This document shows positions 1-11,523 of a stretch of DNA of 11,523 nt, piece after piece (positions within the stretch are counted from its first letter, which is position 1; each line of letters opens with the position of its first letter). This DNA comes from a virus: the UHGV virus genome UHGV-0861165; one strand, 5' to 3'. Both the position numbers and the translations under genes were made by a program. The notes beneath the pieces were generated by a model. It worked only from the letters and a program-made list of their open reading frames with translations, searched no databases and was not told where the DNA came from.

Positions 1-2748
1 ATTGAGCATGGACCAGATGCTGTCCTGACTTTACCCGAGGGTAATGCCAGCGCAGGACTCCCGTCTTCCGTTCGCTACAATGCCGACTCCGACGAATTTG
101 AGGGCTTCTATGAAAATGGTGGATGGTTGCCGCTGGGTGGCGGTGGTATCCGCTGGGAAGTCCTTCCGCATGCCTCTACGGCAACGCTCACTGAAGGGCG
201 AGGCTATCTCATTAATAATACCACAGGGGCATCTACAGTGGTTCTCCCTTCCCCTACGCGTATTGGGGATTCTGTTACTATTTGTGATGCTTATGGGAAA
301 TTTGCCACTTACCCATTGACTGTGTCTCCTTCTGGAAATAATTTGTATGGCTCCACTGAAGACATGGCTATAACAACTGATAACGTATCAGCAACGTTCA
401 CTTGGTCTGGACCTGAACAAGGTTGGGTTATCACATCCGGTGTCGGTCTTGGCCAAGGTCGTGTCTACAGTCGTGAAATCTTTACAAAAATTTTGGCGTC
501 TGAAACAAGTGCTGTCGCTCTCAATACTCCACCAACAATCGTGGACGTGTATGCTGACGGAAAACGTCTTGCGGAATCCAAATATTCACTAGATGGGAAT
601 GTAATCACTTTCAGTCCTTCTTTGCCAGCCAACACAGAACTTCAGGTGATTGAATATACTCCTATTCAATTGGGTAATAGCGGTGGTTCTGGTTCTTCTA
701 CGATTACCTGGGTCTATAATGGGGGTTCAGCGATTGGCGGTGAAACCGAAATCACTTTGGACGTCGTTGTTGATGATGTTCCGGCCATTGATATAAACGG
801 AAGTCGCCAGTATAAAAATCTGGGATTCACATTCGATCCATTAACCAGTAAAATCTATCTTGCACAAGAACTGGAACCAGAGGATGAAGTTGTTGTAATT
901 ATCAATGGAACACCAAACATCTATAATCAAATTGATCATACTTTGCGGGAAGTTGCTCGTGCTACTAACGTTAAAGACAGTGAAGTAATTCTTAGTTCTG
1001 ACACTACTCAGTCCCTTAATGGTAAGAAGATTATTTACTCTGTTAGTGAGCAGAAGGCATATAGTTTACCTACTCTACCGTCCAATGTATTTATTGAATC
1101 TGTTGAAAGTGGGAAATTAACATATAGTCCTGGCTCAATTAAGGTAGATCTACTCCCATTACCTAATGACTCTGCTGTAACTGAGCAAGCAATTCTCAAC
1201 CAGTTGTCTGCAATTGAAGGTGAATCCCTTATTGGAACAGTTACCTATGTAACCCTGCGAGAGTACACAGGCTCAGCTACACGTGTTAAGTGTATCGGTA
1301 GAAGTGTAGAGGGGGATGGTGGTGAGGGGGACTTCTATTTAGTACCTGGTGATTCTACTTCAGTAGATGATGATGGGGTAATTATTGTTGATGGTTCCGG
1401 CCGTCGTTGGAAACGTTCCTATTCTGGCCCAATTTCTGCCTCTTGGTTCGGTGTAAGAGATGGTACTGACGTCACCACTACACTACAAAATGCAGTTAGT
1501 CGGGGTGGTGGACAAATCTTTGTACAGGACGGTCAGTACACACTTACTGCTCCCATCGTTGCAAATTTTACTGGTGCATCTTTCCCAATTATGGGAAGAA
1601 AAAGTAAGCGTTTTGATTTCATTGGTTCATCCATGGCGAACACCACTTTTAATACTAATGGTAATGAAGCGTTTAGTTTTACCGGTACTGATGGTTCTGT
1701 AGCTGGTCAGGGTGTACATAGTGGTGCACGTATTAGTGACTTCAGCGTCTATGGCACAAATAATACAGGCATTGGTGTACGTTTGGTTGGTGCTGCATAC
1801 CTCAAAGTACATGACCTCCAAATTAAACGTACTAATATCGCTATGCGTATTTCTGGTGTACTCTCAAGTGATATAAAACGAATCAATGCTCAATATAACA
1901 ACCATGGTATGTACATCACCAGTGCTTCTAACAGTACAGTCAATGCTATGCGTATTAGTGGGATGTTTGGTGCTAATAGTAAATGGGGAATTGAAGGTGA
2001 AGTAGGTACTAACGTATACATTGAAGATTCTAATTTTGAGGGTAATGGTACAGATGGGGATGAACTGTCTGGTGCTATTTACTTACGAGTTGTAGAACCT
2101 TTGAGCACCATTAACATTAGTGGGTACTTTGAGGCTAACGTTGGGCGAGCAGATATACTGATAGATAACCGAACCAGCTCTCCTTTGGTTGTAAACCTCC
2201 GTGGTTGCGTATTTAATCGTGGTGGTATGCGTGGTGGGTCTAATCTTGGTATTGGTGCAAAGTATAATGTTGAGACACGCTCTACTGGCGGTGGTCCAAT
2301 CATCCTTAATCTTAATGGTTGTGTATTCTTTACACAGACGGGTTTTGGATATGTACCTAGTGCAGATTCTCCATATATACAACCAGCACCATACTTAACT
2401 GTTAATGGGGAAGATACTTGTTACTTTAGTGAATCTACTAGTCGTGGTGAGACTGGGAACCGTGGTATGACATTAGGTATTTCTATGAAAGCTGATGGAA
2501 CCATGGCCAATAAACCACCTTTCTTAACCTCAACTCGTGTTTCTGCTGGTGTATACACCATCACACACAATACTAGATTCGGGACGGATATTGATCATTT
2601 CCAGGCAGTGGCTACGTCTAAGGCCAGTGGTTTTACTGTATCTTATGTGCAGAAGGTTAACTTACAGGCATTACGCATCGTTACATTAAATGCAGCAGGT
2701 TCGCCTGCTGATACTGATTTTGATGTTATAGTCACTTCTCGTCGTTAA
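1..2748 (+). CDS. Tail spike protein, long form, 5'-partial: N-terminal tandem small beta-domains (gp10-like by recollection), internal docking motif, then right-handed parallel beta-helix depolymerase-type domain
   Basis: Frame 1 has no stop from position 1 to TAA at 2746-2748. The ORF-track start at 127 is a TTG inside this open frame, so the gene begins upstream of the window. The translation shows periodic beta-helix-like repeats rich in G/N/S/T (e.g. GIGVRLVGAAYLKVHDLQIKRTNIAMRISG, NVYIEDSNFEGNG). It is paralogous to ORF3 in the docking motif (REVARATNVKDSEVIL...QKAYSLPTLP) and the pre-helix neck motif. Confidence 0.85.
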   Translation: MEHGPDAVLTLPEGNASAGLPSSVRYNADSDEFEGFYENGGWLPLGGGGIRWEVLPHASTATLTEGRGYLINNTTGASTVVLPSPTRIGDSVTICDAYGKFATYPLTVSPSGNNLYGSTEDMAITTDNVSATFTWSGPEQGWVITSGVGLGQGRVYSREIFTKILASETSAVALNTPPTIVDVYADGKRLAESKYSLDGNVITFSPSLPANTELQVIEYTPIQLGNSGGSGSSTITWVYNGGSAIGGETEITLDVVVDDVPAIDINGSRQYKNLGFTFDPLTSKIYLAQELEPEDEVVVIINGTPNIYNQIDHTLREVARATNVKDSEVILSSDTTQSLNGKKIIYSVSEQKAYSLPTLPSNVFIESVESGKLTYSPGSIKVDLLPLPNDSAVTEQAILNQLSAIEGESLIGTVTYVTLREYTGSATRVKCIGRSVEGDGGEGDFYLVPGDSTSVDDDGVIIVDGSGRRWKRSYSGPISASWFGVRDGTDVTTTLQNAVSRGGGQIFVQDGQYTLTAPIVANFTGASFPIMGRKSKRFDFIGSSMANTTFNTNGNEAFSFTGTDGSVAGQGVHSGARISDFSVYGTNNTGIGVRLVGAAYLKVHDLQIKRTNIAMRISGVLSSDIKRINAQYNNHGMYITSASNSTVNAMRISGMFGANSKWGIEGEVGTNVYIEDSNFEGNGTDGDELSGAIYLRVVEPLSTINISGYFEANVGRADILIDNRTSSPLVVNLRGCVFNRGGMRGGSNLGIGAKYNVETRSTGGGPIILNLNGCVFFTQTGFGYVPSADSPYIQPAPYLTVNGEDTCYFSESTSRGETGNRGMTLGISMKADGTMANKPPFLTSTRVSAGVYTITHNTRFGTDIDHFQAVATSKASGFTVSYVQKVNLQALRIVTLNAAGSPADTDFDVIVTSRR

Positions 2749-2754
2749 CTGATA

Positions 2755-2775
2755 CCCCTCCTCGGAGGGGGTTTC
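2755..2775 (+). terminator. Terminator-like GC hairpin (CCCCTC / GAGGGG stem, short loop) followed by TTTCT
   Basis: Perfect inverted repeat CCCCTC(2755-2760)...GAGGGG(2765-2770) with a T-rich 3' flank, 7 nt after the ORF1 stop. The T-tract is short, so it may be a partial terminator or an RNA-stability element. Confidence 0.55.
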
Positions 2776-2880
2776 TAGAAAAACAATGAGGTACATATGA
2801 ACGGATTATTCTTACAAGGTGGTAAAGGTTCAACCGGGATCTTAACCAATAAACAAGCAATAGCTCGGCATTTCGGTGTC
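2776..2880 (+). repeat. Junction cassette copy A: CTAGAAAAACAA-GAGGT-ATATGAACG plus conserved 5' coding segment of the short tail spike
   Basis: By eye, near-identical at nucleotide level to 8103-8209 (TAGAAAAACAAtGAGGTacATATGAACGgatTaTTCTtACAAGGTGGTAAAGG... versus TAGAAAAACAAaGAGGTttATATGAACGaaaTgTTCTcACAAGGTGGTAAAGG...). Includes the RBS (GAGG) and the ATG at 2797. Confidence 0.7.
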
Positions 2881-5301
2881 AAAGAAGACGAAGTCGTTTA
2901 TTTCACTGTCGGTATTGATCTCAGTGGATTTAAAGTAATTTATGATGAGTCTACCCAACGGGCTTATTCTCTTCCTTCAGGTATTGTTTCAGGAACGACT
3001 GCGATAAGCCTTAATTCTGCTGGGGTATTAGTCCATTCTGCTGGTAATGTGGATTTAGGTGCACTAGCTGTTACCCGGGAAGAGTATGTAACTTTACCTG
3101 GTTCATTCGAGACGGGTGTAACCGTTAATGCCAAGAATGAGTTAGTTGTCTTTGCGAATGGCAAGTATCGTTGGGATGGGGCATTGCCTAAAGTGGTTGA
3201 TGCAGCCTCATCCCCCGAAACCAGTGGTGGTATTGCTTCAGGTGCTTGGGTAGGTGTGGTTTCTGCTCTCCTAACAACAGCCAGCGGTACTGGGCTTGTA
3301 GGTCACAAAGGTGCTAACTTTAGTGACACCACTGCCTACCTTTACCTATCCTGGCGTAATGGTGATATTACTGCATTCGGGGGTGTGTACGATGACGCCT
3401 CAGCTGGTGATCTAAATAAAGCAGCCTTTGCTACTATGCAGGATACTTTTGGGGGTGTACGTATAAACCTCATGGGTAAAGCAGTTTACCTACCAAACTC
3501 TATGGAGTTAGAGGTAGGGAGTCTGGAAATCTGGGGTGGTGGTAATATTTTCGGTGGTTCTGGATACATGTTCCGTGCTGGTGACAACGGATTCGTTAAC
3601 ATTAAGGAATTTACCCTACAAAGTATTGATGCAAGTGGTAACGACTTCACTCGCCTTGTTGGTGCACCCTCTAATCGTGTTAACCTCATCCAGTATGTTG
3701 AAGCAGCATATTTCAAAACGATTGGAAGAGTCATCGTATTCGCTGGCAATGGTCGCGCCGGTGGAGACTTTAATCCAGTAGAGACAAGTTACGGCTGTAA
3801 GCAGATTAACTTCCATCACTTTTCATGCGAAGAGCCAGGAGACTATCTCGTTTCTGCCCAGAACTATCCGTTTGATACCTTCAGTGTCACTAAGTTTTAT
3901 GTACATAATATGAAGGGTACGCTCATCAATGCTGGAATTGATAACGATCATGTCTATGAGCGTCAGCTAAACCACGCAATGAAAACCCTCATCGTTTCCG
4001 ACTACACCGTCATGAACGAAGATGATTTCTGGGCTGATGGCGTCTTTACCTATACTACGGTAGCTATCGCTGAAGTTGAGCACCTAGTTCACACCAACGG
4101 TCGCCAACATGGTGTTAAAGTCAAAGAGGCTGGTAATGTAGTCTACGACATCTACAATAATGCATTTAGCGTCCAAGAAGAAAATATCTTTATCAGTGAC
4201 TGTTTCAACTGGAACGACGGGATGCTCATGCCTCACAAGATTAAAGGGGCGTGGAGCTATTCGAGTAAGAATAAGCACTGGGTGTACCGTAAGAGTTATG
4301 TGGTGGCAATGAAAGCTATTCACAGTGGTATTTCAGAAGGAAACGCCAAAGGTTCTTTCTTCTATCCCGAAACGGATGACCTGCACACTAGTGCTGCTTC
4401 TTCTGTCACTGATTGGACGCAACGACAAATCACGATCACTGACTGTTTCATTGAACTGATTAAAGTTAATCAGGCTAACCTTTCACGTCCATTGTTCAAT
4501 GTGCGTTTGGATGGCAACACCTTTGTTACACACGATTCTGGTACTACCCATTTGGTTCAGTTCTCTGCCTATCCCCATAACCTCTATCAGCAGATGACGG
4601 TAACAAATAACCGTATCATAGCTCCGGCTCTTACGTTATCTGCATTGGTAGGCTTCTCCGCAGGTTCTCAGGCTGGTGGAGGAGTATTCCAGGGGGTTGT
4701 CGATATTTCGAACAATACCGTTCGGGCAGCAGCGGCGAATTTGCTGGCAGATTGGTCTGGTGGTCAGAATATCGGAACTGGGTCAGTCATCCGTATCGAC
4801 AATAACGATATGGTTACCACAGGCAACTGCCAGATCTGTAACTCTAATCCGTCCTATGTTGACTCTGTATTTGCTAGAAACAACTATTTGCAGGGCACTG
4901 CGACTGTAGGGATGGGTAAGCTGAACGCATCTGCCTACGCATATGAGACTGTGAATGGGTTTAAGGGGAACAGTCCGATTGTTCTGTTCCAGCAGGGAAT
5001 CCCAACAGCGCAGCAGATTAATAGTCGCTCGTATCGCCTGGAGATTTCTGGAACTAATGGTGAGAAAGTAACCCAAGGTTTCACTATCACTGCTGGCGTC
5101 AGCACGACTTCAATACGCTTCGTGAGTTCCGATGGGAACACGTACACGAAGGTAACTGGAACCGATAATGGCACCTTCGAAATGCAATCCACTTCATCGG
5201 ATGGGTTAAATTTAGAGGTCGTGGTTGCATCTGATGGTGTAACAGTCAGAACAGCGTCGTCTGTGATGCAAAGGTTTGAAGCTCGACTGTATGCTCTGTA
5301 A
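2797..5301 (+). CDS. Tail spike protein, short form (834 aa): N-terminal anchor module shared with ORF4, divergent central and C-terminal receptor-binding/enzymatic region
   Basis: ATG at 2797 preceded by GAGG with a 5-nt spacer; uninterrupted 2505-nt ORF. The first ~155 aa (MNGLFLQGGKGSTGILTNKQAIARHFGVKEDEVVYF...KVIYDESTQRAYSLP...) are clearly homologous to the ORF4 N-terminus. The C-terminus is rich in G/T/S/V beta-strand-like sequence typical of tail spike C-terminal domains. Enzymatic fold not assignable by eye. Confidence 0.85.
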   Translation: MNGLFLQGGKGSTGILTNKQAIARHFGVKEDEVVYFTVGIDLSGFKVIYDESTQRAYSLPSGIVSGTTAISLNSAGVLVHSAGNVDLGALAVTREEYVTLPGSFETGVTVNAKNELVVFANGKYRWDGALPKVVDAASSPETSGGIASGAWVGVVSALLTTASGTGLVGHKGANFSDTTAYLYLSWRNGDITAFGGVYDDASAGDLNKAAFATMQDTFGGVRINLMGKAVYLPNSMELEVGSLEIWGGGNIFGGSGYMFRAGDNGFVNIKEFTLQSIDASGNDFTRLVGAPSNRVNLIQYVEAAYFKTIGRVIVFAGNGRAGGDFNPVETSYGCKQINFHHFSCEEPGDYLVSAQNYPFDTFSVTKFYVHNMKGTLINAGIDNDHVYERQLNHAMKTLIVSDYTVMNEDDFWADGVFTYTTVAIAEVEHLVHTNGRQHGVKVKEAGNVVYDIYNNAFSVQEENIFISDCFNWNDGMLMPHKIKGAWSYSSKNKHWVYRKSYVVAMKAIHSGISEGNAKGSFFYPETDDLHTSAASSVTDWTQRQITITDCFIELIKVNQANLSRPLFNVRLDGNTFVTHDSGTTHLVQFSAYPHNLYQQMTVTNNRIIAPALTLSALVGFSAGSQAGGGVFQGVVDISNNTVRAAAANLLADWSGGQNIGTGSVIRIDNNDMVTTGNCQICNSNPSYVDSVFARNNYLQGTATVGMGKLNASAYAYETVNGFKGNSPIVLFQQGIPTAQQINSRSYRLEISGTNGEKVTQGFTITAGVSTTSIRFVSSDGNTYTKVTGTDNGTFEMQSTSSDGLNLEVVVASDGVTVRTASSVMQRFEARLYAL

Positions 5302-5302
5302 G

Positions 5303-5330
5303 AACAACCCCGCTTCGGCGGGTTCTTGTT
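5303..5330 (+). terminator. Terminator-like hairpin with CCCGC-TTCG-GCGGG core (UUCG-type tetraloop) and T-rich 3' flank
   Basis: CCCGC(5309-5313) TTCG GCGGG(5318-5322), flanked by partially complementary AACAA/TTGTT arms, followed by TTCTTGTT. Lies immediately after the ORF2 stop (5299-5301). Confidence 0.45.
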
Positions 5331-5360
5331 ATACCTTTGTTCATAAATTTATTAGTTCAG

Positions 5361-5368
5361 ACTAAATA
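5361..5368 (+). promoter_or_regulatory. ACTAAATA motif, candidate phage late-promoter-like element (T4 late consensus TATAAATA, 6/8 match)
   Basis: The same octamer recurs at 10350-10357 upstream of ORF5, followed in both cases by a similar leader (ATGGRG-ATC-(2-3 nt)-AAATG). The spacing to the downstream start is 34-36 nt if ORF3 starts at 5405. Confidence 0.3.
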
Positions 5369-5404
5369 CCCCATATTGGCAAATCCTCTATGGGGTATCT
5401 TCAA

Positions 5405-8068
5405 ATGACCAGAAACGTCGAGAGCATCTTTGGAGCGGTCGTAACAGCTCCGCACCAGATTCCATACACTTACACAGCAACGGGCGGAGAGAAGTTTATC
5501 TCCCTCCCTTTCTACCCTGTCACTGGTATAGTCACAATCAACGGTGGTATGCAAGTTCCGTTAGACAACTTTGAAATCGATGGAAATACGTTGAATCTCG
5601 GGTGTGCATTATCCAAAGGTGACGTTGTGTTCTGTCTGTTTGATAAGATTCTGTCTCCAGAAGATTATAAAACTGGGATTCGAATCTATAAGTTTCAGGC
5701 TATAGGAGGTGAAACCGAGTTCACTCCTGATTACACATCCTATGGAGTCCAATCTCTTTATATCGGTGGTGAGTACAAAACACCCGAAATTGAATATTCC
5801 TATGACAGCACGACAGGGAAAGTGACTTTACAAACTGCGCTGACTGCAGGCGTTTGGGTAGTCGCTGAAATGTCTGTTAAACAACCGAATATCAGTCCGT
5901 TGTTTGACCGAAGTATTCAAGAAATCGCCCGTTCAGCTAATGTAAAAGATTCTGAGGTAATTCTTAATACGGATACATCTCAAGTACTCAATAACAAGAA
6001 AGTTATCTTCGATGCAGCTGCTCAGAAAATTTATGGCCTGCCTTCATTACCGACCAATGTCTATATTAGTTCTGTGTCTAATGGTCAGTTAACCTACAGT
6101 CCAGGTAACATTACCGTAGATTTGATGGAAGTTCCTAATTCTGGTGCTAGTCTCAGAGAAGACCTGAGTAAGCCTGATGGTAGCAAGCTCATTGGTTCAT
6201 GCCCCAATATTGCAGTACTGCGAACAATTGAGCCTACCTATGCTGAACAACGCATTTACGTAGAAGCACATACTGAAGGTATGATTGCAACCAATGCAGG
6301 TGATTTAGGTGGCGGGTATTTTGTATATAAACCATCTGTTACATCAGCAGATGACAATGGTATGACTATTGTTACTGCATCCGGCAAGCGTTGGGTACGT
6401 GATTTACGTGGTAGCACCGAAGTTACCCCATCTATGTTTGGTGCGTGGATGGATGCTCCTTATATTGATGGGAGCACTATTCAGGGTACACCTTATCCTA
6501 AAGCACCAAGTATGGGGGCTGCTGACCTGTCTGGTGTGCACAATGATGGGGATGCTTTGCTGGCAACCTACACATATGCTGTAGCTAATGGGTTGAATAT
6601 CAAAATTACTCAACCGATGTACATTGGTGATACACAGATTGATATTAGCAATCAGCGTTGGACTGGTAGATCTCTATCCATTACGGGTCTTGGTCAGAGA
6701 CAAAGTATTATTTATACATCAGGTAAGGGTGGATTCATCTCTACCAGATGGGGACACAATATTACCGTTGGTCGCCTCTCTTTCCGTAATGCTGATTCTG
6801 ATTACGTAGGTAGTCCTCTTGTTATCAGTTCATTCGACTTAAGTAATGGCATCGGTGGTGGTGGTAAAACATTCAATATTCACGATGTGGACTTTTACCA
6901 CTATAAGTTCGCTTTGCCTATGGCTTGCTTTGTCAGTGTTATGACCAATTTGTATGCATATGACTGTACCTATGGTTTTGGTATCAATGGAAGCACTAGT
7001 ACGGATATGTCATCTATTTGGGCACACCATTGTGACATTGGCTTTTTATGGGGAGCTGCCATTAATCGTACTACATACGAGCCAGCCAATAATGAAACAC
7101 CTGTTATGTATGTTGCTACCAGCAACATTGCAGCAGATGGTTGCATTTTACCTCATAAATTTTATGGAGATATTCGTAGCCTTTCCTTCTCTGGCTTTGG
7201 TATTGAAGGGATAAATGGTCCAGTGGCATTAGACTTCTCACAGTTAGCCTCCCCTGCTGCACAAACAACAATCGTATTCAGAGATGTTTCTTGTTGGATT
7301 CAGTCTAAAATGAATACTGGTGTAACTCATTTTATTGAGTTGCCTGCTAATGAGTACCAGGCTGGTAGGATTATTTTTGACAGTGGTTACGTTAACTCTG
7401 ACTATGCTATCAAATTGATGGAGAATACCACTTCTCCAAGTAACCAGTATATTGGGCGTAGTGTTACATTAAATAGTAATTTTGAATTTTTAAAAGTTAG
7501 CGATGGTTCCTACACAATATCTACATATAACCGTGGTAACCTTTACCGGGGCAGGGTATATGGAGAAGATATTGTACAAGGTCGTAACTCGTACACGGGT
7601 ACTACTTTGTCAGCAATCCATTCTAATAGTAATTCCTTCTTCAGAAGTGTTGACCATAAGGAAGCTACTGTACTGGTTCCATGGAACAGGGCTTTAGATA
7701 TATTCCTTTGTGCTGTAGGGGAAGAGACTAAAATTCCGGATGGTTGCTTCGTTGCTGGGCGTGCAGATATCATTCCAGTTAACAAAAATGGTTTGGCTGG
7801 TACTGAATCAGGGGGCAGTATTCTGTTTGGGCTATCCGGTAGCACACAGGAAAATGTAGCCTCTGGTGCAGTCTGGTCTAATATGATTGCTGGTGATAAA
7901 TCTCTTTCCGGGGTAACAGTAACTAAACTGGTACGTGATGGTAAAACATTTGTTAGAATCGCATTGCCTACGGCAAGCCTAACAAATGCAATCGTTCACC
8001 TTTCTGTAACCTACTGTGGTTTTGCACATTACTACGATAAGCGTTGGGAAATAAAACCCTTAAGCTAA
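5405..8068 (+). CDS. Tail spike protein, long form (887 aa from ATG 5405; 892 aa if the in-frame ATG at 5390 is used): N-terminal tandem small beta-domains, docking motif, neck motif, beta-helix depolymerase-type domain
   Basis: Uninterrupted frame to TAA 8066-8068. Start ambiguity: the ATG at 5390 has no SD and sits in the 3' arm of an inverted repeat, whereas the ATG at 5405 has a leader that parallels the ORF5 leader. The protein is paralogous to ORF1 in the docking motif (QEIARSANVKDSEVIL...QKIYGLPSLP) and the neck motif (GGGYFVYKPSVTSADDNGMTIVTASGKRWVRD). Confidence 0.85.
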   Translation: MTRNVESIFGAVVTAPHQIPYTYTATGGEKFISLPFYPVTGIVTINGGMQVPLDNFEIDGNTLNLGCALSKGDVVFCLFDKILSPEDYKTGIRIYKFQAIGGETEFTPDYTSYGVQSLYIGGEYKTPEIEYSYDSTTGKVTLQTALTAGVWVVAEMSVKQPNISPLFDRSIQEIARSANVKDSEVILNTDTSQVLNNKKVIFDAAAQKIYGLPSLPTNVYISSVSNGQLTYSPGNITVDLMEVPNSGASLREDLSKPDGSKLIGSCPNIAVLRTIEPTYAEQRIYVEAHTEGMIATNAGDLGGGYFVYKPSVTSADDNGMTIVTASGKRWVRDLRGSTEVTPSMFGAWMDAPYIDGSTIQGTPYPKAPSMGAADLSGVHNDGDALLATYTYAVANGLNIKITQPMYIGDTQIDISNQRWTGRSLSITGLGQRQSIIYTSGKGGFISTRWGHNITVGRLSFRNADSDYVGSPLVISSFDLSNGIGGGGKTFNIHDVDFYHYKFALPMACFVSVMTNLYAYDCTYGFGINGSTSTDMSSIWAHHCDIGFLWGAAINRTTYEPANNETPVMYVATSNIAADGCILPHKFYGDIRSLSFSGFGIEGINGPVALDFSQLASPAAQTTIVFRDVSCWIQSKMNTGVTHFIELPANEYQAGRIIFDSGYVNSDYAIKLMENTTSPSNQYIGRSVTLNSNFEFLKVSDGSYTISTYNRGNLYRGRVYGEDIVQGRNSYTGTTLSAIHSNSNSFFRSVDHKEATVLVPWNRALDIFLCAVGEETKIPDGCFVAGRADIIPVNKNGLAGTESGGSILFGLSGSTQENVASGAVWSNMIAGDKSLSGVTVTKLVRDGKTFVRIALPTASLTNAIVHLSVTYCGFAHYYDKRWEIKPLS

Positions 8069-8078
8069 TTAACTACCC

Positions 8079-8102
8079 CCACCCCCTTTATGGGGGTGGT
8101 TT
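8079..8102 (+). terminator. Terminator-like hairpin CCACCCCC-TTTAT-GGGGGTGG followed by TTT
   Basis: Perfect 8-bp inverted repeat (8079-8086 / 8092-8099) with a 5-nt loop and a TTT 3' tail, 10 nt after the ORF3 stop. Confidence 0.6.
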
Positions 8103-8209
8103 ACTAGAAAAACAAAGAGGTTTATATGAACGAAATGTTCTCACAAGGTGGTAAAGGCTCCACTGGTATTCTTACCAATAAGCAAGCCATTGCCCGTAAG
8201 TTTGGTGTT
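8103..8209 (+). repeat. Junction cassette copy B (see 2776-2880)
   Basis: Nucleotide-level similarity to copy A spans the leader, RBS, ATG (8126) and the first ~80 nt of coding sequence. Confidence 0.7.
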
Positions 8210-10297
8210 AAGCAATCTGAGGTTGTTTATGCCAAATCAGGACAGTCCTTGTCTGGTTATAAAGTAATCTACGATAAGGTCACTCAGCGCTCCTATGCAC
8301 TGCCTTCTAACCTGCCTGCTGGCGCTACCATCACCAGCCTGACAGACGGCATTCTCGTACACAATACGGGCACCGTAGACCTGGGTGCTCTGGCTGTACT
8401 GCGCGGGGAGTTCGTTACTCTGGTCGAAAACTTTACGTCTGGATTTACGATTCGTGTCAAAAACGAAGTTGTAAGTGATGGGGTAAATTTGTATCGCTGG
8501 GGTGGTAGTTTACCAAAGACCGTTAATTCTGGTGAAACTTTAGAAAGCACTGGGGGTATGAATACGAATGCGTGGATTGGCGTTGTATCGCTTAATAACT
8601 CATTTTTGAGTGTAAATGCTCTAAGGGCGTCAGAAAACTTAAATAAAAATATACCATTGTTTCTTTCAAGTTATTATGAAGGTATTGATGGCGGCGGCGG
8701 GTCTTTCTACGTAGATACCAACGACACTACGTCATCAGATAACAATGGTACAGTATTTGTTAACGCCTCTGGCCAGCGCATAAAACGTATTTCAGATGGT
8801 GTATGTCGTTGGTCAGACTTCGGAATTCTTCCAGGCATGCCGGTAGCGCCTACAAAATCGCAGTGTGAAGCCGTTTGGTCGTGGGGGTTTGCAAATGGGT
8901 GTACTCGTTATGAAACCTTCCAGAAAGGGGAGATGACGTTCACCTTCCCCCTGTTGTTCCAAGTTCCGGCTAACTGGACAGGTGGTGCTGTTAGCTTCAT
9001 TGCAGAAGGGTTGCATAAATTTGCTTATGATTTCAAAAATGGCGCTACAGATGATGTGATTGAGATCCTCCTTAAACTGGAAGATCTGTCAGGTAATACA
9101 CCCATCCATACTGTTTATAATTTTGATAACGTTGGGATGGGACGGTTCCCCGGGAAAAACATCCGATATACCGCACTGCGACACACGAGCGCAAAAAACT
9201 CAATGATCAAGGTTACTGGGAAGAACAACTACGGATATGCCTTGTTCATAGGCGGTAGTGATAACAGCATCGTGTACAATTCAACGTTTTATAACTGCGA
9301 TGGCCAGTTGCTTGTAAATTCTCCAGCAGGCGGTTACGACAGCTTTGGTGATGCAATTTATGTTGGCGCTAAAAATGTGTCTATCCAGAGTCCTGTAATT
9401 GAAACAACACAGGGTGGTAGAGCCGGTATCGTATTTGAAGGGACATGGGTTGAACGTGTTGGTGGTGAGGTAACAAACTGCTTTATTAAGGGATATGACC
9501 GTGGTATTCACATAGAGACTGTAGGTTTCAGGATGGATGCAATTAATATTACTGGAGGCAGGATACAAGATTGCAATACCAGCGTATTGGCATTCAATGG
9601 TGTAACTGATGATATGGGTAGTGATATGTCTGTTATCATCAAGGGGTTAACGTCAAGGCTTGATAGCACAATTTCAGGCCACGCCAATCCGTCTGGTTTT
9701 AGCCTGGGACACCTTATGGTATCTGGAGTTAACACACAAGTAACAACGGAAGGGTGCTCATGGCAGACTCACCAGAACAACATCACCGTTGTGGGTAATG
9801 GGAAATGGGTGAGCAATGGTGACCGCATGTTTGTTAACTCTGGTGGCATCAACCTGCCGTACACTCGTGGGTGCGAGATAAACAATCTGTACGCACCACA
9901 GAACAGAAACGCGTTAAAATCCGCAGGTAATTTAGTCTTTACAAACTCTTATTGGGGAGGGGACATTAACATAACCGGGGGCAATAAAACAATTATTGAT
10001 AACGTCGAGATGTCAAGACAAGGAGGATATGCAAACTGTGGTCGTATCAGTCTGGTTGGCTCCAATAGTGCGATATTGCGTAATATTATATTCCAGTATC
10101 CAGACTCATGGGCAATAGATAATACTCAAACTTGGCAGGTCCCCGTGTGTCCTATCATAGAAAACATCCACGTAAATAGCGTAGAAACAGGAACTGCAAC
10201 ATTACAAAGAAACGCAGAAAGTGGGGCTAATAATCGGTACAGAAGGTCTATTCCTTCATATATATCAAACGGAAGTACATGGACGATAATTAGTTAA
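8126..10297 (+). CDS. Tail spike protein, short form (723 aa): shared N-terminal anchor module, neck motif, right-handed beta-helix (pectate-lyase-like) depolymerase-type domain
   Basis: ATG at 8126 preceded by GAGG (8117-8120); uninterrupted 2172-nt ORF. The N-terminal ~150 aa are homologous to ORF2. Typical beta-helix repeats are visible (GGSDNSIVYNSTFYNCDGQLLVNS, AIYVGAKNVSIQSPVIETTQGGRAGIVFEG, TNCFIKGYDRGIHIET). Confidence 0.88.
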   Translation: MNEMFSQGGKGSTGILTNKQAIARKFGVKQSEVVYAKSGQSLSGYKVIYDKVTQRSYALPSNLPAGATITSLTDGILVHNTGTVDLGALAVLRGEFVTLVENFTSGFTIRVKNEVVSDGVNLYRWGGSLPKTVNSGETLESTGGMNTNAWIGVVSLNNSFLSVNALRASENLNKNIPLFLSSYYEGIDGGGGSFYVDTNDTTSSDNNGTVFVNASGQRIKRISDGVCRWSDFGILPGMPVAPTKSQCEAVWSWGFANGCTRYETFQKGEMTFTFPLLFQVPANWTGGAVSFIAEGLHKFAYDFKNGATDDVIEILLKLEDLSGNTPIHTVYNFDNVGMGRFPGKNIRYTALRHTSAKNSMIKVTGKNNYGYALFIGGSDNSIVYNSTFYNCDGQLLVNSPAGGYDSFGDAIYVGAKNVSIQSPVIETTQGGRAGIVFEGTWVERVGGEVTNCFIKGYDRGIHIETVGFRMDAINITGGRIQDCNTSVLAFNGVTDDMGSDMSVIIKGLTSRLDSTISGHANPSGFSLGHLMVSGVNTQVTTEGCSWQTHQNNITVVGNGKWVSNGDRMFVNSGGINLPYTRGCEINNLYAPQNRNALKSAGNLVFTNSYWGGDINITGGNKTIIDNVEMSRQGGYANCGRISLVGSNSAILRNIIFQYPDSWAIDNTQTWQVPVCPIIENIHVNSVETGTATLQRNAESGANNRYRRSIPSYISNGSTWTIIS

Positions 10298-10302
10298 CAA
10301 AG

Positions 10303-10330
10303 CCCCTCTTCGGAGGGGTTTCTTCTTTCT
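10303..10330 (+). terminator. Rho-independent-type terminator: CCCCTC-TTCG-GAGGGG hairpin followed by TTTCTTCTTTCT
   Basis: Perfect 6-bp GC stem with a TTCG tetraloop and a pyrimidine/T-rich tail, 5 nt after the ORF4 stop. The stem sequence is nearly the same as the hairpin at 2755-2775. Confidence 0.65.
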
Positions 10331-10339
10331 ATTCCTCGG

Positions 10340-10367
10340 TTGGTTGTATACTAAATATCTCTATAAT
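10340..10367 (+). promoter_or_regulatory. Candidate promoter upstream of ORF5: TTGGTT (weak -35) - 16 nt - TATAAT (consensus -10); overlaps the ACTAAATA motif at 10350-10357
   Basis: A perfect TATAAT hexamer at 10362-10367 lies ~24 nt upstream of ATG 10392, with RBS GGAG at 10381-10384. The -35 is poor (3/6). The alternative reading is a phage late-type promoter centred on ACTAAATA. Confidence 0.3.
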
Positions 10368-10391
10368 GGCACCTATCGATGGAGCATCAAA

Positions 10392-11523
10392 ATGCAAGAA
10401 ATGAACCTCAACCGCCGCCCATATTGGGATGACTGGAATCCAGAGAAGCGTTTTTCGCGCATCCTATTCCGTCCGGCACCTATCAAAGTTCAGACGCGTG
10501 AACTGAACCAGATGCAGACCATCTTCCAGGATCAACTGGAGAAACTTGGCAACCATCTGTTCAAAGACGGTTCAATGGTTATCCCCGGCGGCCTGACGAT
10601 CACCAACACTGCTGTGTCCATGAAGTTCACTCTGGCTGGTGGTAGTGAGTTCACTGATCTGGAAGGTATCTCCGAACTCTATGTTCTGGGCAAGGACAAC
10701 AATGCGAAAGCACGCGTCCTGTCCTTGGAACGTTACCCAGCTGAGCCGGATACAATGTATGCCATCTTAGAGATGACTGAGAGTGGTAGTTCAGACGGTT
10801 TCGAAGCTGGCGACAATCTATACTTCAACACCTATGACGTGAACGATAACTTCATCCGTGTCGGCTATGGCGTGGCCGATACTGTTGGCGGTTCGATTGT
10901 CGCTCGCATGACAAAGGGTGTTTATTTCGTTCGTGGTATGTTCCTGGATGTTGAACCAACCACTTTGATCGTAGACAACGCATCGAACTCTACATCTCAC
11001 CGCATTGGCTTCAAAGTTACAGAAACAATCGTGACCGAAGCAGAAGATGAAAGTCTGTTCTCCAATGCTCAGGGTACTCCGAACTCTAAAGCCCCTGGTG
11101 CGCATCGCCTGCGCGTCGACCTCGTGTTGTCTCGCTACGGTTATGATGAAGAAGTGGCCGACTTCGTTGAACTGGCGAAGGTGAAAGACGGTCGCATTCA
11201 GTCCATGGTCACCCAGTCAACGTACAACATCCTCGAAGACGCCATGGCTCAGCGTACCTATGAGACCAATGGTGACTACAACGTCTCTACTCACCAGATC
11301 GACCTGCGTGAACATCTGAAAGAGAACAACAACGGCGGCGTTTACACTCCGGCTGAAGGTGGTGATGAAAGCAAATTCGTGGCGGTTATGAAGCCAGGCA
11401 TTTCCTACGTTCGTGGTCGTCGTATCGAAAACCTCGGCGAAGAGCTGGTCATAATTGACAAAGCCCGTGACACTGATATCCTGAACAACAACCCTGTGGC
11501 TGTTTCGACTGGCAACTATCTGG
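10392..11523 (+). CDS. Conserved phage structural protein of unknown function (possibly baseplate- or tail-associated), 3'-partial
   Basis: ATG at 10392 with a good RBS (GGAG, 7-nt spacer); the frame is open to the window end, so it is absent from the ORF track. It looks visibly GC-richer, with more host-like codon choice, than the spike genes, and it lacks beta-helix repeats and the spike N-terminal modules. The function is inferred only from its position next to the spike cluster. Confidence 0.75.
   Translation, partial: MQEMNLNRRPYWDDWNPEKRFSRILFRPAPIKVQTRELNQMQTIFQDQLEKLGNHLFKDGSMVIPGGLTITNTAVSMKFTLAGGSEFTDLEGISELYVLGKDNNAKARVLSLERYPAEPDTMYAILEMTESGSSDGFEAGDNLYFNTYDVNDNFIRVGYGVADTVGGSIVARMTKGVYFVRGMFLDVEPTTLIVDNASNSTSHRIGFKVTETIVTEAEDESLFSNAQGTPNSKAPGAHRLRVDLVLSRYGYDEEVADFVELAKVKDGRIQSMVTQSTYNILEDAMAQRTYETNGDYNVSTHQIDLREHLKENNNGGVYTPAEGGDESKFVAVMKPGISYVRGRRIENLGEELVIIDKARDTDILNNNPVAVSTGNYL

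What the first reader, a model, noticed from the sequence alone, without database searches (positions are those of the whole stretch)
2749..2830. Near-identical junction cassette at both long-to-short spike boundaries
The ORF1/ORF2 and ORF3/ORF4 junctions (second copy 8069-8160) share the same layout. A C-rich/G-rich hairpin is followed by CTAGAAAAACAA-GAGGT-(T/A)(C/T)ATATGAACG, and then a highly similar first ~80 nt of coding sequence. Such a repeated junction is a ready-made homologous recombination site for swapping whole spike modules, and it may also give coordinated translation initiation of the two short spikes. The intergenic spacers alternate short-with-cassette (48 and 57 nt) and long (88 and 94 nt), suggesting two long-plus-short gene pairs.
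Basis: seen in the sequence. Interest (0 to 1): 0.55.

Follow-up and report, generated by a model that had tools for sequence, protein, structure and literature searches.

The report
Portable spike-gene junction cassette, present twice
The repeated junction is real: it is a conserved hairpin-plus-ribosome-site block that accompanies one type of short tailspike gene across three unrelated phage groups, and here a second copy replaced the usual promoter in front of another spike gene.

Summary
The window is an Ackermannviridae tailspike cluster (tsp4-tsp3-tsp2-tsp1, then vrlC). Both long-to-short junctions carry a GC hairpin, a short T run, CTAGAAAAACAA, GAGGT, four bases, then ATGAACG. "Near-identical" overstates it: 74% over 147 nt.

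In the coding part, third codon positions match at only 16/35, so protein constraint explains that similarity. The non-coding motif matches at 17/18.

The cassette is not specific to this genome. It precedes TSP1/gp63.1-type short spikes in Ackermannviridae, G7C-like N4 podophages and rV5-like myophages. The hairpin stem sequence varies, while TAGAAAAACAA+GAGGT is almost invariant and always 21 nt from the ATG.

Relatives carry it only at tsp2-tsp1. Their tsp3 has its own CTAAATAcCcc late-promoter leader. Here that leader and about 22 codons were replaced by a cassette, leaving a three-part mosaic in ORF2.

Each window copy is closer to copies in other phages than to its partner, so there is no exchange between the two copies.

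Best reading: a promoter-less intercistronic expression module (weak terminator or stabiliser hairpin plus an open ribosome-binding site) that moves with the spike's N-terminal end. The recombination idea is partly right, but the crossovers map in the coding 5' region, as already proposed in the literature. The role of the 11-mer is inferred, not shown.

The parts
1..2748 (+). ORF1, tsp4-type long spike. Its 5' end is cut off by the window start. The N-terminal anchor/XD part (1-977) is conserved; the receptor-binding part is unique.
   Evidence: Bases 1-977 are 96-98% identical to tsp4 of YX22, A221 and AV101. Frame 1 is open from base 1. The C-terminal part has only relatives at 38% amino-acid identity or less.
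2755..2770 (+). Junction-1 hairpin (CCCCTC-CTCG-GAGGGG), followed by G and TTT (2771-2774).
   Evidence: Centroid fold -13.5 kcal/mol. It did not qualify as a terminator in the scan because the T run is too short.
2775..2796 (+). Junction-1 core: CTAGAAAAACAA (2775-2786), T, GAGGT (2788-2792), ACAT.
   Evidence: Of the Kuttervirus-tsp1 / L019 allele type (CAATGAGGTAC).
2797..5301 (+). ORF2, a short spike in the tsp3 position. Its 5' end is a mosaic: 2797-~2862 is TSP1/gp63.1-type, ~2868-3004 is Agtrevirus tsp3-type, and from ~3005 it is TSP1/gp63.1-type again. The receptor-binding part is unique.
   Evidence: alignment. PF18668 at residues 91-154. N-terminal 1-166 matches PDB 4OJ5, 6NW9 and 4QNL.
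5309..5322 (+). Terminator-like hairpin after ORF2 (CCCGCTTCGGCGGG, then TTCTTGTTAT).
5362..5395 (+). CTAAATACCCC family motif (putative T4-type late promoter), whose CCCC forms the 5' arm of a leader hairpin ending in GGGG just before the ORF3 start.
   Evidence: The motif is named in PMC7283392.
5390..8068 (+). ORF3, tsp2-type long spike. The start may be 5405, as annotated in relatives.
   Evidence: 5325-8214 is 96% identical to YX22 and fGh-Ecl02. Annotated starts.
8079..8099 (+). Junction-2 hairpin (CCACCCCC-TTTAT-GGGGGTGG), followed by TTTA (8100-8103).
   Evidence: -18.2 kcal/mol. Not called a terminator.
8104..8125 (+). Junction-2 core: CTAGAAAAACAA (8104-8115), A, GAGGT (8117-8121), TTAT.
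   Evidence: Of the Agtrevirus tsp1 / G7C allele type.
8126..10297 (+). ORF4, tsp1-type short spike. The first 89 nt belong to the block conserved with relatives; the rest is divergent.
10300..10321 (+). Terminator-like hairpin after ORF4, with a T-rich tail.
10351..10392 (+). CTAAATATC motif and leader of the next gene (vrlC-like, ATG at 10393).

Best explanation
The cassette is a promoter-less intercistronic expression module attached to the 5' end of TSP1/gp63.1-type short tailspike genes.

Proposed mechanism:
- Transcription enters from the late promoter of the upstream long-spike gene.
- The GC hairpin right after that gene's stop codon has only a 3-4-U tail. It acts as a weak terminator and/or a 3' stabiliser of the upstream message.
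- The hairpin also locks away the G-rich arm. The A-rich stretch TAGAAAAACAA, the GAGGT Shine-Dalgarno and the ATG 21 nt after the TAG then stay single-stranded.
- This gives an open ribosome-landing site that works on read-through transcripts.
- The module needs only host ribosomes and a passing polymerase, so it works in any recipient. It therefore moves with the spike's N-terminal end between phage families that have different transcription programmes.

In this genome it occurs twice. A second copy, from a different lineage than the first, was recombined into the tsp4-tsp3 junction. It replaced the usual terminator, CTAAATAcCcc promoter, gated leader and first ~22 codons of tsp3. That turned tsp4-tsp3 into a second bicistronic pair.

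Shown: the anatomy, the distribution, purifying selection on the motif, absence of promoter motifs, and the mosaic origin.
Inferred: co-transcription, leakiness of the hairpin, and the translational role of the 11-mer.
For: (1) Same layout in three phage groups:
- Ackermannviridae tsp2-tsp1 junctions.
- G7C gp66-gp63.1 and other Gamaleyavirus.
- The rV5-like phage KKE7M.

(2) Purifying selection on the non-coding core:
- In 24 distinct copies, every position of TAGAAAAACAA and GAGGT has a major-allele frequency of at least ~0.9.
- Third codon positions of the adjoining gene average 0.72, and the SD-ATG spacer 0.3-0.5.
- Within the window the motif matches 17/18, against 16/35 at third positions.

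(3) Structure is conserved, not sequence:
- All 25 distinct copies fold a GC hairpin of -11 to -19 kcal/mol.
- At least 8 different stem sequences occur.
- The hairpin ends 2-7 nt before the TAG.
- The TAG-to-ATG distance is 21 nt in 24 of 25 copies listed.

(4) No promoter in the cassette:
- No CTAAATA and no sigma-70-like site on the + strand.
- In relative fGh-Ecl02, TAGAAAAACA occurs once in 149.8 kb.
- In the same genome CTAAATAYC occurs 12 times, 10 of them within ~30-50 nt upstream of an ATG (tsp4, tsp3, tsp2, vrlC, neck and tail-sheath genes among them).
- The three phage groups use different late transcription systems (established knowledge: T4-type gp55/gp33, annotated, versus N4-type). 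A shared promoter is therefore unlikely.

(5) The T run is too short for the terminator scan. That scan did call the hairpins after ORF2 and ORF4.

(6) Predicted RBS accessibility in read-through context is 0.52-0.54 for the cassettes, against 0.26-0.35 for CTAAATA-type leaders. This is weak support.

(7) Import rather than duplication:
- The closest relatives (fGh-Ecl02, YX22, AV101) have a promoter-type leader and an MISQFNQPRGS / MNPQFNQPKGS N-terminus at tsp3.
- ORF2 is a three-part mosaic.
- Each window copy is nearer to copies in other phages than to its partner.
- All 173 phage records with a detectable cassette have exactly one.
Against: - There are no transcript data, so co-transcription and read-through are inferred.
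- ARNold called the equivalent hairpin of PhAPEC5 a terminator (4-T tail). If termination is efficient, the short spike would need a promoter that I could not see.
- An open, A-rich landing pad should tolerate A/T substitutions. Near-invariance of 11 specific bases suggests a sequence-specific partner that this model does not name.
- The accessibility difference is modest and depends on an assumed transcription start.
- Formal covariation on an ungapped alignment was weak, because the hairpins shift in register.
- In CBA120, TSP1 docks on TSP4 and TSP3 on TSP2 (PMC11721090). Adjacent genes are therefore not docking partners, which weakens any 'co-expression of partners' rationale.
Confidence: 0.6

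Rival explanations
1. Recent intragenomic duplication or gene conversion. On this view the two cassettes are copies of each other, kept alike by recombination, and serve as the crossover site for swapping spike modules within or between genomes.
For: It is the longest direct repeat in the window. Recombination in tsp 5' regions is documented experimentally (PMC11414711).
Against: - Third-position identity is 16/35, and 16 of 29 identical-amino-acid codons differ synonymously.
- The longest identical run is about 14 nt.
- Each copy ranks 14-15 of 22 relative to the other.
- The mapped breakpoints lie in coding sequence, and the tsp2-cassette-tsp1 5' block is collinear with relatives.
Confidence: 0.05
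2. Terminator plus private promoter. The hairpin stops transcription of the long spike gene, and TAGAAAAACAA (or the sequence around it) is a promoter element that starts a separate short-spike mRNA.
For: - ARNold predicts a terminator at the PhAPEC5 homologue.
- Invariance of a specific 11-mer at a fixed distance from the start codon is what a promoter element would show.
- The motif has a loose resemblance to the A-rich T4-type late element.
Against: - It has no match to CTAAATAcCcc or to a sigma-70 consensus.
- It occurs once per genome, whereas the family late motif occurs 12 times.
- A start about 6 nt downstream would leave a leader that begins at the SD.
- It is conserved in phage groups with unrelated late transcription machinery.
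Confidence: 0.12
3. Sequence-specific RNA operator or processing site. The 11-mer would be bound by a host factor (for example Hfq at an AAnAAnAA / ARN-type site, or ribosomal protein S1). Alternatively it would be cut by RNase E next to the protective hairpin. Either would set the long:short spike ratio.
For: - Near-invariance of specific bases where mere A-richness should suffice.
- A hairpin followed by a single-stranded A-rich stretch is the classical context for RNase E sites and for 3' stabilisers (established knowledge).
- A host factor would explain conservation across phage families.
- Diverged lineages keep a purine-rich version (L037 TAAAAAAGAAA; L026 CTAGAATAATCA).
Against: No direct evidence, no Rfam family and no literature on the motif. 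This rival overlaps with, rather than excludes, the best explanation.
Confidence: 0.18
4. DNA-level exchange signal. The invariant motif (with CTAG at its head) would be the target of a nuclease or recombinase that stimulates replacement of the downstream spike module.
For: - The motif sits at the upstream edge of a module that is clearly mobile between families.
- Relatives encode several homing endonucleases.
- TTTCTAGAAA is a perfect palindrome in junction 1.
Against: - The palindrome is absent from most copies.
- Breakpoints with relatives are at codons ~22-24, ~30 and ~70, and directly after stop codons, not at the motif.
- The three phage groups share no known common endonuclease.
- The fixed 21-nt distance to the ATG points to an RNA or translation role.
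Confidence: 0.05

Closest known systems
Ackermannviridae tsp gene cluster with conserved 5' ends as exchange sites (Sorensen et al. 2021, PMC8432352; 2024, PMC11414711)
   Same: Same gene order and the same conserved N-terminal XD/TD1 regions with variable receptor-binding parts. One ORF2 breakpoint falls at GTTAISL, the GTTAVSL motif these authors proposed as a recombination site.
   Different: Those papers deal with coding sequence only. The 2021 paper contains neither 'promoter' nor 'terminator', and in the 2024 paper neither word refers to a phage signal. The non-coding cassette, its cross-family conservation, and replacement of the tsp3 promoter leader by a cassette are not described there.
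G7C gp66-gp63.1 junction and its Gamaleyavirus homologues (hairpin annotated as 'repeat_region' in HQ259105, and as ARNold 'terminator' in PhAPEC5 KF192075)
   Same: Long adaptor-bearing fibre gene, then GC hairpin, then (C)TAGAAAAACAAAGAGGT, four bases and ATGAACGA, then a short spike with the same N-terminus.
   Different: A different virus family (N4-like podophage) with different late transcription. Only the hairpin was annotated, not the conserved 11-mer/RBS block.
T4-type late promoter leaders of Ackermannviridae (CTAAATAcCcc, PMC7283392)
   Same: They sit in the same kind of place, between spike genes and just before a start codon, and serve the same end: expressing a spike gene late.
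   Different: The cassette lacks the motif and the RBS-embedding leader hairpin. In this window it physically replaces such a leader at tsp3.
Intercistronic stem-loops that stabilise or attenuate within operons (e.g. malEFG REP, pap operon; established knowledge)
   Same: A GC hairpin directly after the upstream stop codon, inside a presumed polycistronic transcript, followed by a single-stranded A-rich stretch and the next RBS.
   Different: The function here is untested. The element travels with the downstream gene's 5' end between viruses, and its flanking 11-mer is almost invariant.

Membership tests
Ackermannviridae tail-spike gene cluster | Four consecutive spike genes (tsp4, tsp3, tsp2, tsp1) followed by vrlC, with conserved N-terminal regions | tested here: met
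   Four + strand ORFs. 1-977, 5325-8214 and 10298-11523 are 96-99% identical to YX22, fGh-Ecl02, A221 and AV101. 281 phage records match, mainly Salmonella and Escherichia phages.
Ackermannviridae tail-spike gene cluster | Family regulatory motif CTAAATAcCcc upstream of late genes | tested here: met
   Present at 5362 and 10351 (variant CTAAATATC). Absent from both cassettes. Motif named in PMC7283392.
TSP1/gp63.1-type short spike (N-terminal adaptor) | N-terminal ~160 residues homologous to CBA120 TSP1/TSP3 and G7C gp63.1; Pfam Tail_spike_N | tested here: met
   PF18668 hits at E 9e-21 and 1e-12. PDB 4OJ5, 6NW9, 4QNL and 9D84 at E 1e-41 to 1e-70 over residues 1-~160.
Rho-independent terminator | GC-rich stem-loop | tested here: met
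   Stems of 6 bp and 8 bp, at -13.5 and -18.2 kcal/mol.
Rho-independent terminator | U-rich tract (at least 5 of 8) directly after the stem | tested here: not met
   The tails are GTTTCTAG and TTTACTAG. The scan did not call them, while it did call the hairpins after ORF2 and ORF4. A 4-T variant in PhAPEC5 was called by ARNold, so a weak terminator remains possible.
T4-type late promoter / sigma-70 promoter | CTAAATA(C/T)C element, or a -35/-10 pair, upstream of the gene | tested here: not met
   No CTAAATA within 100 nt upstream of ORF2 or ORF4. No + strand sigma-70-like site in 2749-2796 or 8069-8125.
Shine-Dalgarno translation initiation region | A purine-rich match to the anti-SD 4-9 nt before the start codon, in accessible RNA | tested here: met
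   GAGGT lies 4 nt before the ATG in both copies. It is conserved in 24 copies. Mean unpaired probability is 0.52-0.54. Activity itself was not tested.
Any curated RNA family (Rfam 15) | Covariance-model match at gathering score | tested here: not met
   No hit in the window. There was only a chance-level HEARO hit (E 0.55) near junction 2.

The most novel reading that the evidence does not exclude
TAGAAAAACAA is a sequence-specific operator, not just an open landing pad. It would be recognised by a host factor common to enterobacteria (an Hfq/S1-type binder or RNase E). Together with the hairpin it would fix the ratio of short to long spike. Being independent of any phage's own transcription programme, it would act as a portable 'plug-in' expression adaptor that lets spike genes be exchanged between unrelated phage families and work at once.
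Probability: 0.2. Interest if true: 0.6.

Novelty: new variant of a known kind. Interest (0 to 1): 0.42.

Why it matters
Spike exchange decides the host range of these phages, and they are being engineered by swapping tsp genes. Known work treats the conserved coding 5' ends as the handles for exchange.

This analysis adds three points:
- A non-coding block moves with one of those handles across at least three phage groups.
- That block is under stronger constraint than the neighbouring synonymous sites.
- It can stand in for a dedicated late promoter, as the tsp3 position of this genome shows.

For engineering, this suggests a compact, promoter-independent way to append or replace a spike gene behind another. 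It also warns that changing the 26-nt block may alter spike stoichiometry.

It is not a new kind of system. The interest lies in one unexplained invariant 11-mer and in a clear natural example of regulatory-module replacement.

Tried and rejected
- **TAG as a back-up stop for the upstream gene.** It is in frame in both window junctions, but across 21 copies the frame is 0, 1 or 2 (10/5/6), so this is coincidence. The TAG is always in frame with, and 21 nt from, the downstream ATG, which only reflects the absence of indels in the block.
- **Palindrome.** TTTCTAGAAA is palindromic in junction 1 only.
- **Formal covariation of the hairpin.** RNAalifold on an ungapped alignment gave a weak result because stems slide by 1-4 nt. 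I relied on per-sequence folds instead.
- **Donor of the ORF1 receptor-binding part plus cassette as one imported 'pair'.** No nucleotide match was found, and only relatives at 38% amino-acid identity or less. This could not be tested.
- **Recurrence of the ORF2 chimera.** There is no exact protein on record. A degenerate 68-nt pattern across the breakpoint has no hit in IMG/VR.
- **Literature.** No paper holds TAGAAAAACAA in a phage context. No Ackermannviridae transcript-mapping study was found.
- **Gene pair equals docking pair.** Rejected for CBA120, where TSP1 docks on TSP4 and TSP3 on TSP2.
- **Pattern hits in MAGs and metagenomes.** Twelve are the same spike module with a hairpin. The rest are unrelated AAGGAGGT ribosome sites of other organisms.

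Full report
**What the window is**

Four large + strand ORFs fill the window:
- ORF1 runs to 2748 and is cut off at the 5' end by the window start.
- ORF2 is 2797-5301.
- ORF3 is 5390-8068.
- ORF4 is 8126-10297.
- Another gene starts at 10393.

Megablast finds 281 phage records, mainly Salmonella and Escherichia phages. The best are Enterobacter phage fGh-Ecl02 and Escherichia phages YX22, A221 and AV101, but none covers more than 42% of the window.

The order is the family's tsp4-tsp3-tsp2-tsp1-vrlC. Both short spikes have the N-terminal ~160 residues of CBA120 TSP1/TSP3 and G7C gp63.1 (PDB 4OJ5, 6NW9, 4QNL). Both also match Pfam Tail_spike_N.

**Check of the observation**

Both long-to-short junctions read: stop codon, GC hairpin, TTT, CTAGAAAAACAA, one base, GAGGT, four bases, ATGAACG.
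- The 12-mer is exact at 2775 and 8104 and occurs nowhere else in the window.
- The pair 2755-2901 / 8084-8230 is the longest direct repeat in the window, at 74% identity over 147 nt.
- Spacers are 48, 88, 57 and 95 nt.

So the layout is confirmed, but 'near-identical' is true only of the non-coding core (17/18). In the first 35 codons, 29 amino acids are identical but only 16 third positions are. Sixteen of the 29 conserved codons differ synonymously. The coding similarity is therefore what protein constraint alone gives. The non-coding motif is far better conserved than neutral sites; with a 46% neutral match rate, 17 of 18 has a probability of about 2e-5 (my arithmetic).

**The cassette is not peculiar to this genome or this family**

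A blastn of junction 2 also hits G7C-like N4 podophages (Gamaleyavirus: G7C, pSb-1, EC1-UPM, Uz-1) at 91-95% identity over window ~8081-8230. It also hits rV5-like myophages (KKE7M, BME3, a Phapecoctavirus).

Reading those loci shows the same anatomy. In G7C it lies between gp66 (long, adaptor-bearing) and gp63.1 (short).

Across loci from IMG/VR, INPHARED, MAGs and metagenomes I collected at least 25 distinct copies.
- Every copy has a GC hairpin of -11 to -19 kcal/mol.
- At least eight different stem sequences occur (CCCCTC/GAGGGG, CCACCCCC/GGGGGTGG, CCCCGC/GCGGGG, GGGTCAC/GTGACC, CCCTCC/GGAGGG and others).
- The hairpin ends 2-7 nt before the TAG.
- TAGAAAAACAA and GAGGT have major-allele frequencies of at least ~0.9 at every position.
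- The adjoining third codon positions average 0.72, and the four bases between SD and ATG 0.3-0.5.
- The TAG is 21 nt from the ATG in 24 of 25 copies listed.

This is structure conservation in the hairpin and sequence conservation in the core. Both are stronger than neutral drift in the same sequences.

**What the cassette is not**
- It has no CTAAATAcCcc, the regulatory motif known in this family (PMC7283392), and no sigma-70-like site.
- In 149.8 kb of the relative fGh-Ecl02, TAGAAAAACA occurs once, at tsp2-tsp1.
- In the same genome CTAAATAYC occurs 12 times, 10 of them within ~30-50 nt upstream of an ATG. Those include tsp4, tsp3, tsp2, vrlC, neck and tail-sheath genes.
- That genome encodes T4-type gp55, gp33 and gp45. 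G7C-like phages use the N4 scheme (established knowledge). A promoter shared by these groups is unlikely, whereas host ribosomes are common to all.
- The window's cassette hairpins fail the terminator scan for lack of a T run. The hairpins after ORF2 and ORF4 pass it.
- ARNold did call the 4-T variant in PhAPEC5 a terminator, so weak termination is plausible.
- No Rfam family matches, and no paper holds the motif in a phage context.

**Why there are two copies here**

In more than 15 Ackermannviridae loci, tsp4, tsp3 and tsp2 each have their own CTAAATACCCC leader. Only tsp2-tsp1 has the cassette. This includes the closest relatives, whose tsp3 starts MISQFNQPRGS or MNPQFNQPKGS behind a promoter-type leader.

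All 173 INPHARED records with a detectable cassette have exactly one.

The window's ORF2 is a three-part mosaic:
- nt 1-66 (plus the cassette) are TSP1/gp63.1-type, with 1-4 differences from AV101 tsp1, KKE7M and G7C over nt 20-66.
- nt 72-208 are Agtrevirus tsp3, with 2-4 differences from YX22 and AV101.
- From nt ~209 it is TSP1/gp63.1-type again.

The switches fall in the AIAR codons and at GTTAISL. The latter is the motif proposed as a recombination site by Sorensen et al..

So a cassette with about 22 codons replaced the terminator, late promoter, leader and first ~22 codons of tsp3. The tsp3-type core of the first tandem domain was kept. A reasonable inference is that this preserves docking specificity.

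The imported copy is not derived from the resident one. Each window copy ranks 14th-15th of 22 in similarity to the other and is closer to copies in other phages, including other families.

One IMG/VR contig (L026) has diverged cassette-like sequences (CTAGAATAATCAGAGGT, TATAAGAATATCAGAGGT) before both short spikes. The double arrangement is therefore rare, not unique.

**Where recombination actually happened**

Against the closest relatives the window is conserved at three places and unrelated in between:
- 1-977.
- ~5300-8214, which is tsp2, cassette 2 and the first 89 nt of tsp1 as one collinear 96% block.
- 10298-11523.

Breakpoints thus lie after the XD region of tsp4, right after stop codons, and at codon ~30 of tsp1. 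None lies in the non-coding cassette.

The cassette belongs to the conserved 'handle' on the upstream side of the variable receptor-binding part. This agrees with published ideas that conserved 5' ends and flanking genes provide the homology. It does not single out the cassette as the crossover site.

The two copies within the genome share runs of at most ~14 identical bases. Recombination between them would delete ORF2-ORF3.

**Mechanism proposed**

The cassette is a promoter-less intercistronic expression module.
- Shown: anatomy, distribution, selection on the core, lack of promoter motifs, and origin by recombination.
- Inferred: the short spike is translated from read-through of the long spike's late transcript.
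- Inferred: the hairpin attenuates and/or protects the upstream 3' end, and keeps its G-rich arm from pairing with the RBS.
- Inferred: the A-rich 11-mer with GAGGT forms an open initiation site.

Predicted accessibility of the RBS in read-through context is 0.52-0.54 for the cassettes. It is 0.26-0.35 for CTAAATA-type leaders, which rise to 0.40-0.57 if transcription starts inside their hairpin as in T4 late genes. This support is weak and depends on an assumption.

What this model does not explain is why eleven specific bases, rather than mere A-richness, are kept. A host-factor site or a processing site is the main open alternative.

**Novelty and score**

Mosaic exchange of spike modules and conserved tsp 5' ends are known. 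The hairpin has been annotated before as a repeat or a terminator.

I could not find the following described:
- Cross-family conservation of the 26-nt non-coding block.
- Its tight linkage to one spike N-terminus.
- A natural case where it replaces a late-promoter leader.

I rate this a new variant of a known kind, of moderate interest.

Noticed in passing
window 5362-5395; also L001 2860-2910, 5940-5985, 8120-8167: In CTAAATACCCC leaders the CCCC of the motif is the 5' arm of a hairpin, and the 3' arm (GGGGTAT) lies just before the start codon. This recalls T4 genes e and soc, where a late start inside the hairpin frees the ribosome site, while read-through RNA keeps it closed.
   Followed up: partly
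window 5390 vs 5405: The start of ORF3 is ambiguous. The first ATG (5390) lies inside the leader hairpin. The relatives fGh-Ecl02, YX22, AV101 and A221 are annotated from MTRNVES, which is 5405 here.
   Followed up: no
L003 5045-5404 (pSb-1) and L004 6044-6352 (KKE7M): After the cassette these phages have only a 102-119-aa ORF carrying the spike N-terminus. The short spike there appears to be truncated or split.
   Followed up: no
window 1141-2745, ~3260-5300, 8215-10297: The receptor-binding parts of ORF1, ORF2 and ORF4 have no nucleotide match in 50,697 phage records. ORF1's has only relatives at 38% amino-acid identity or less (Aeromonas, Shigella Sf101-type tail proteins).
   Followed up: partly
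L026 5671-5963: An uncultivated Ackermannviridae-like contig carries an extra small ORF (~97 aa) between tsp2 and tsp1. It has diverged cassette-like sequences before both short spikes.
   Followed up: partly
L027, L028, L033 at ~5955-6000; L037 at ~5950-6000: Variant cassettes exist. TTAGAAAAACAGGAGATTCATC is joined to a different N-terminus (MNPQFAQPKGS) in maane-type Kutterviruses. TAAAAAAGAAAGAGGT occurs in a G7C-like contig. The non-coding block and the N-terminal coding type are therefore not strictly linked.
   Followed up: partly
window 2772-2781: TTTCTAGAAA is a perfect 10-bp palindrome containing the rare CTAG. It is not palindromic in junction 2 or in most other copies.
   Followed up: yes
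window 2779-2786 and 8108-8115: AAAAACAA fits the AAnAAnAA / (ARN)3 pattern bound by the distal face of Hfq. This rests on recall only and was not tested.
   Followed up: no
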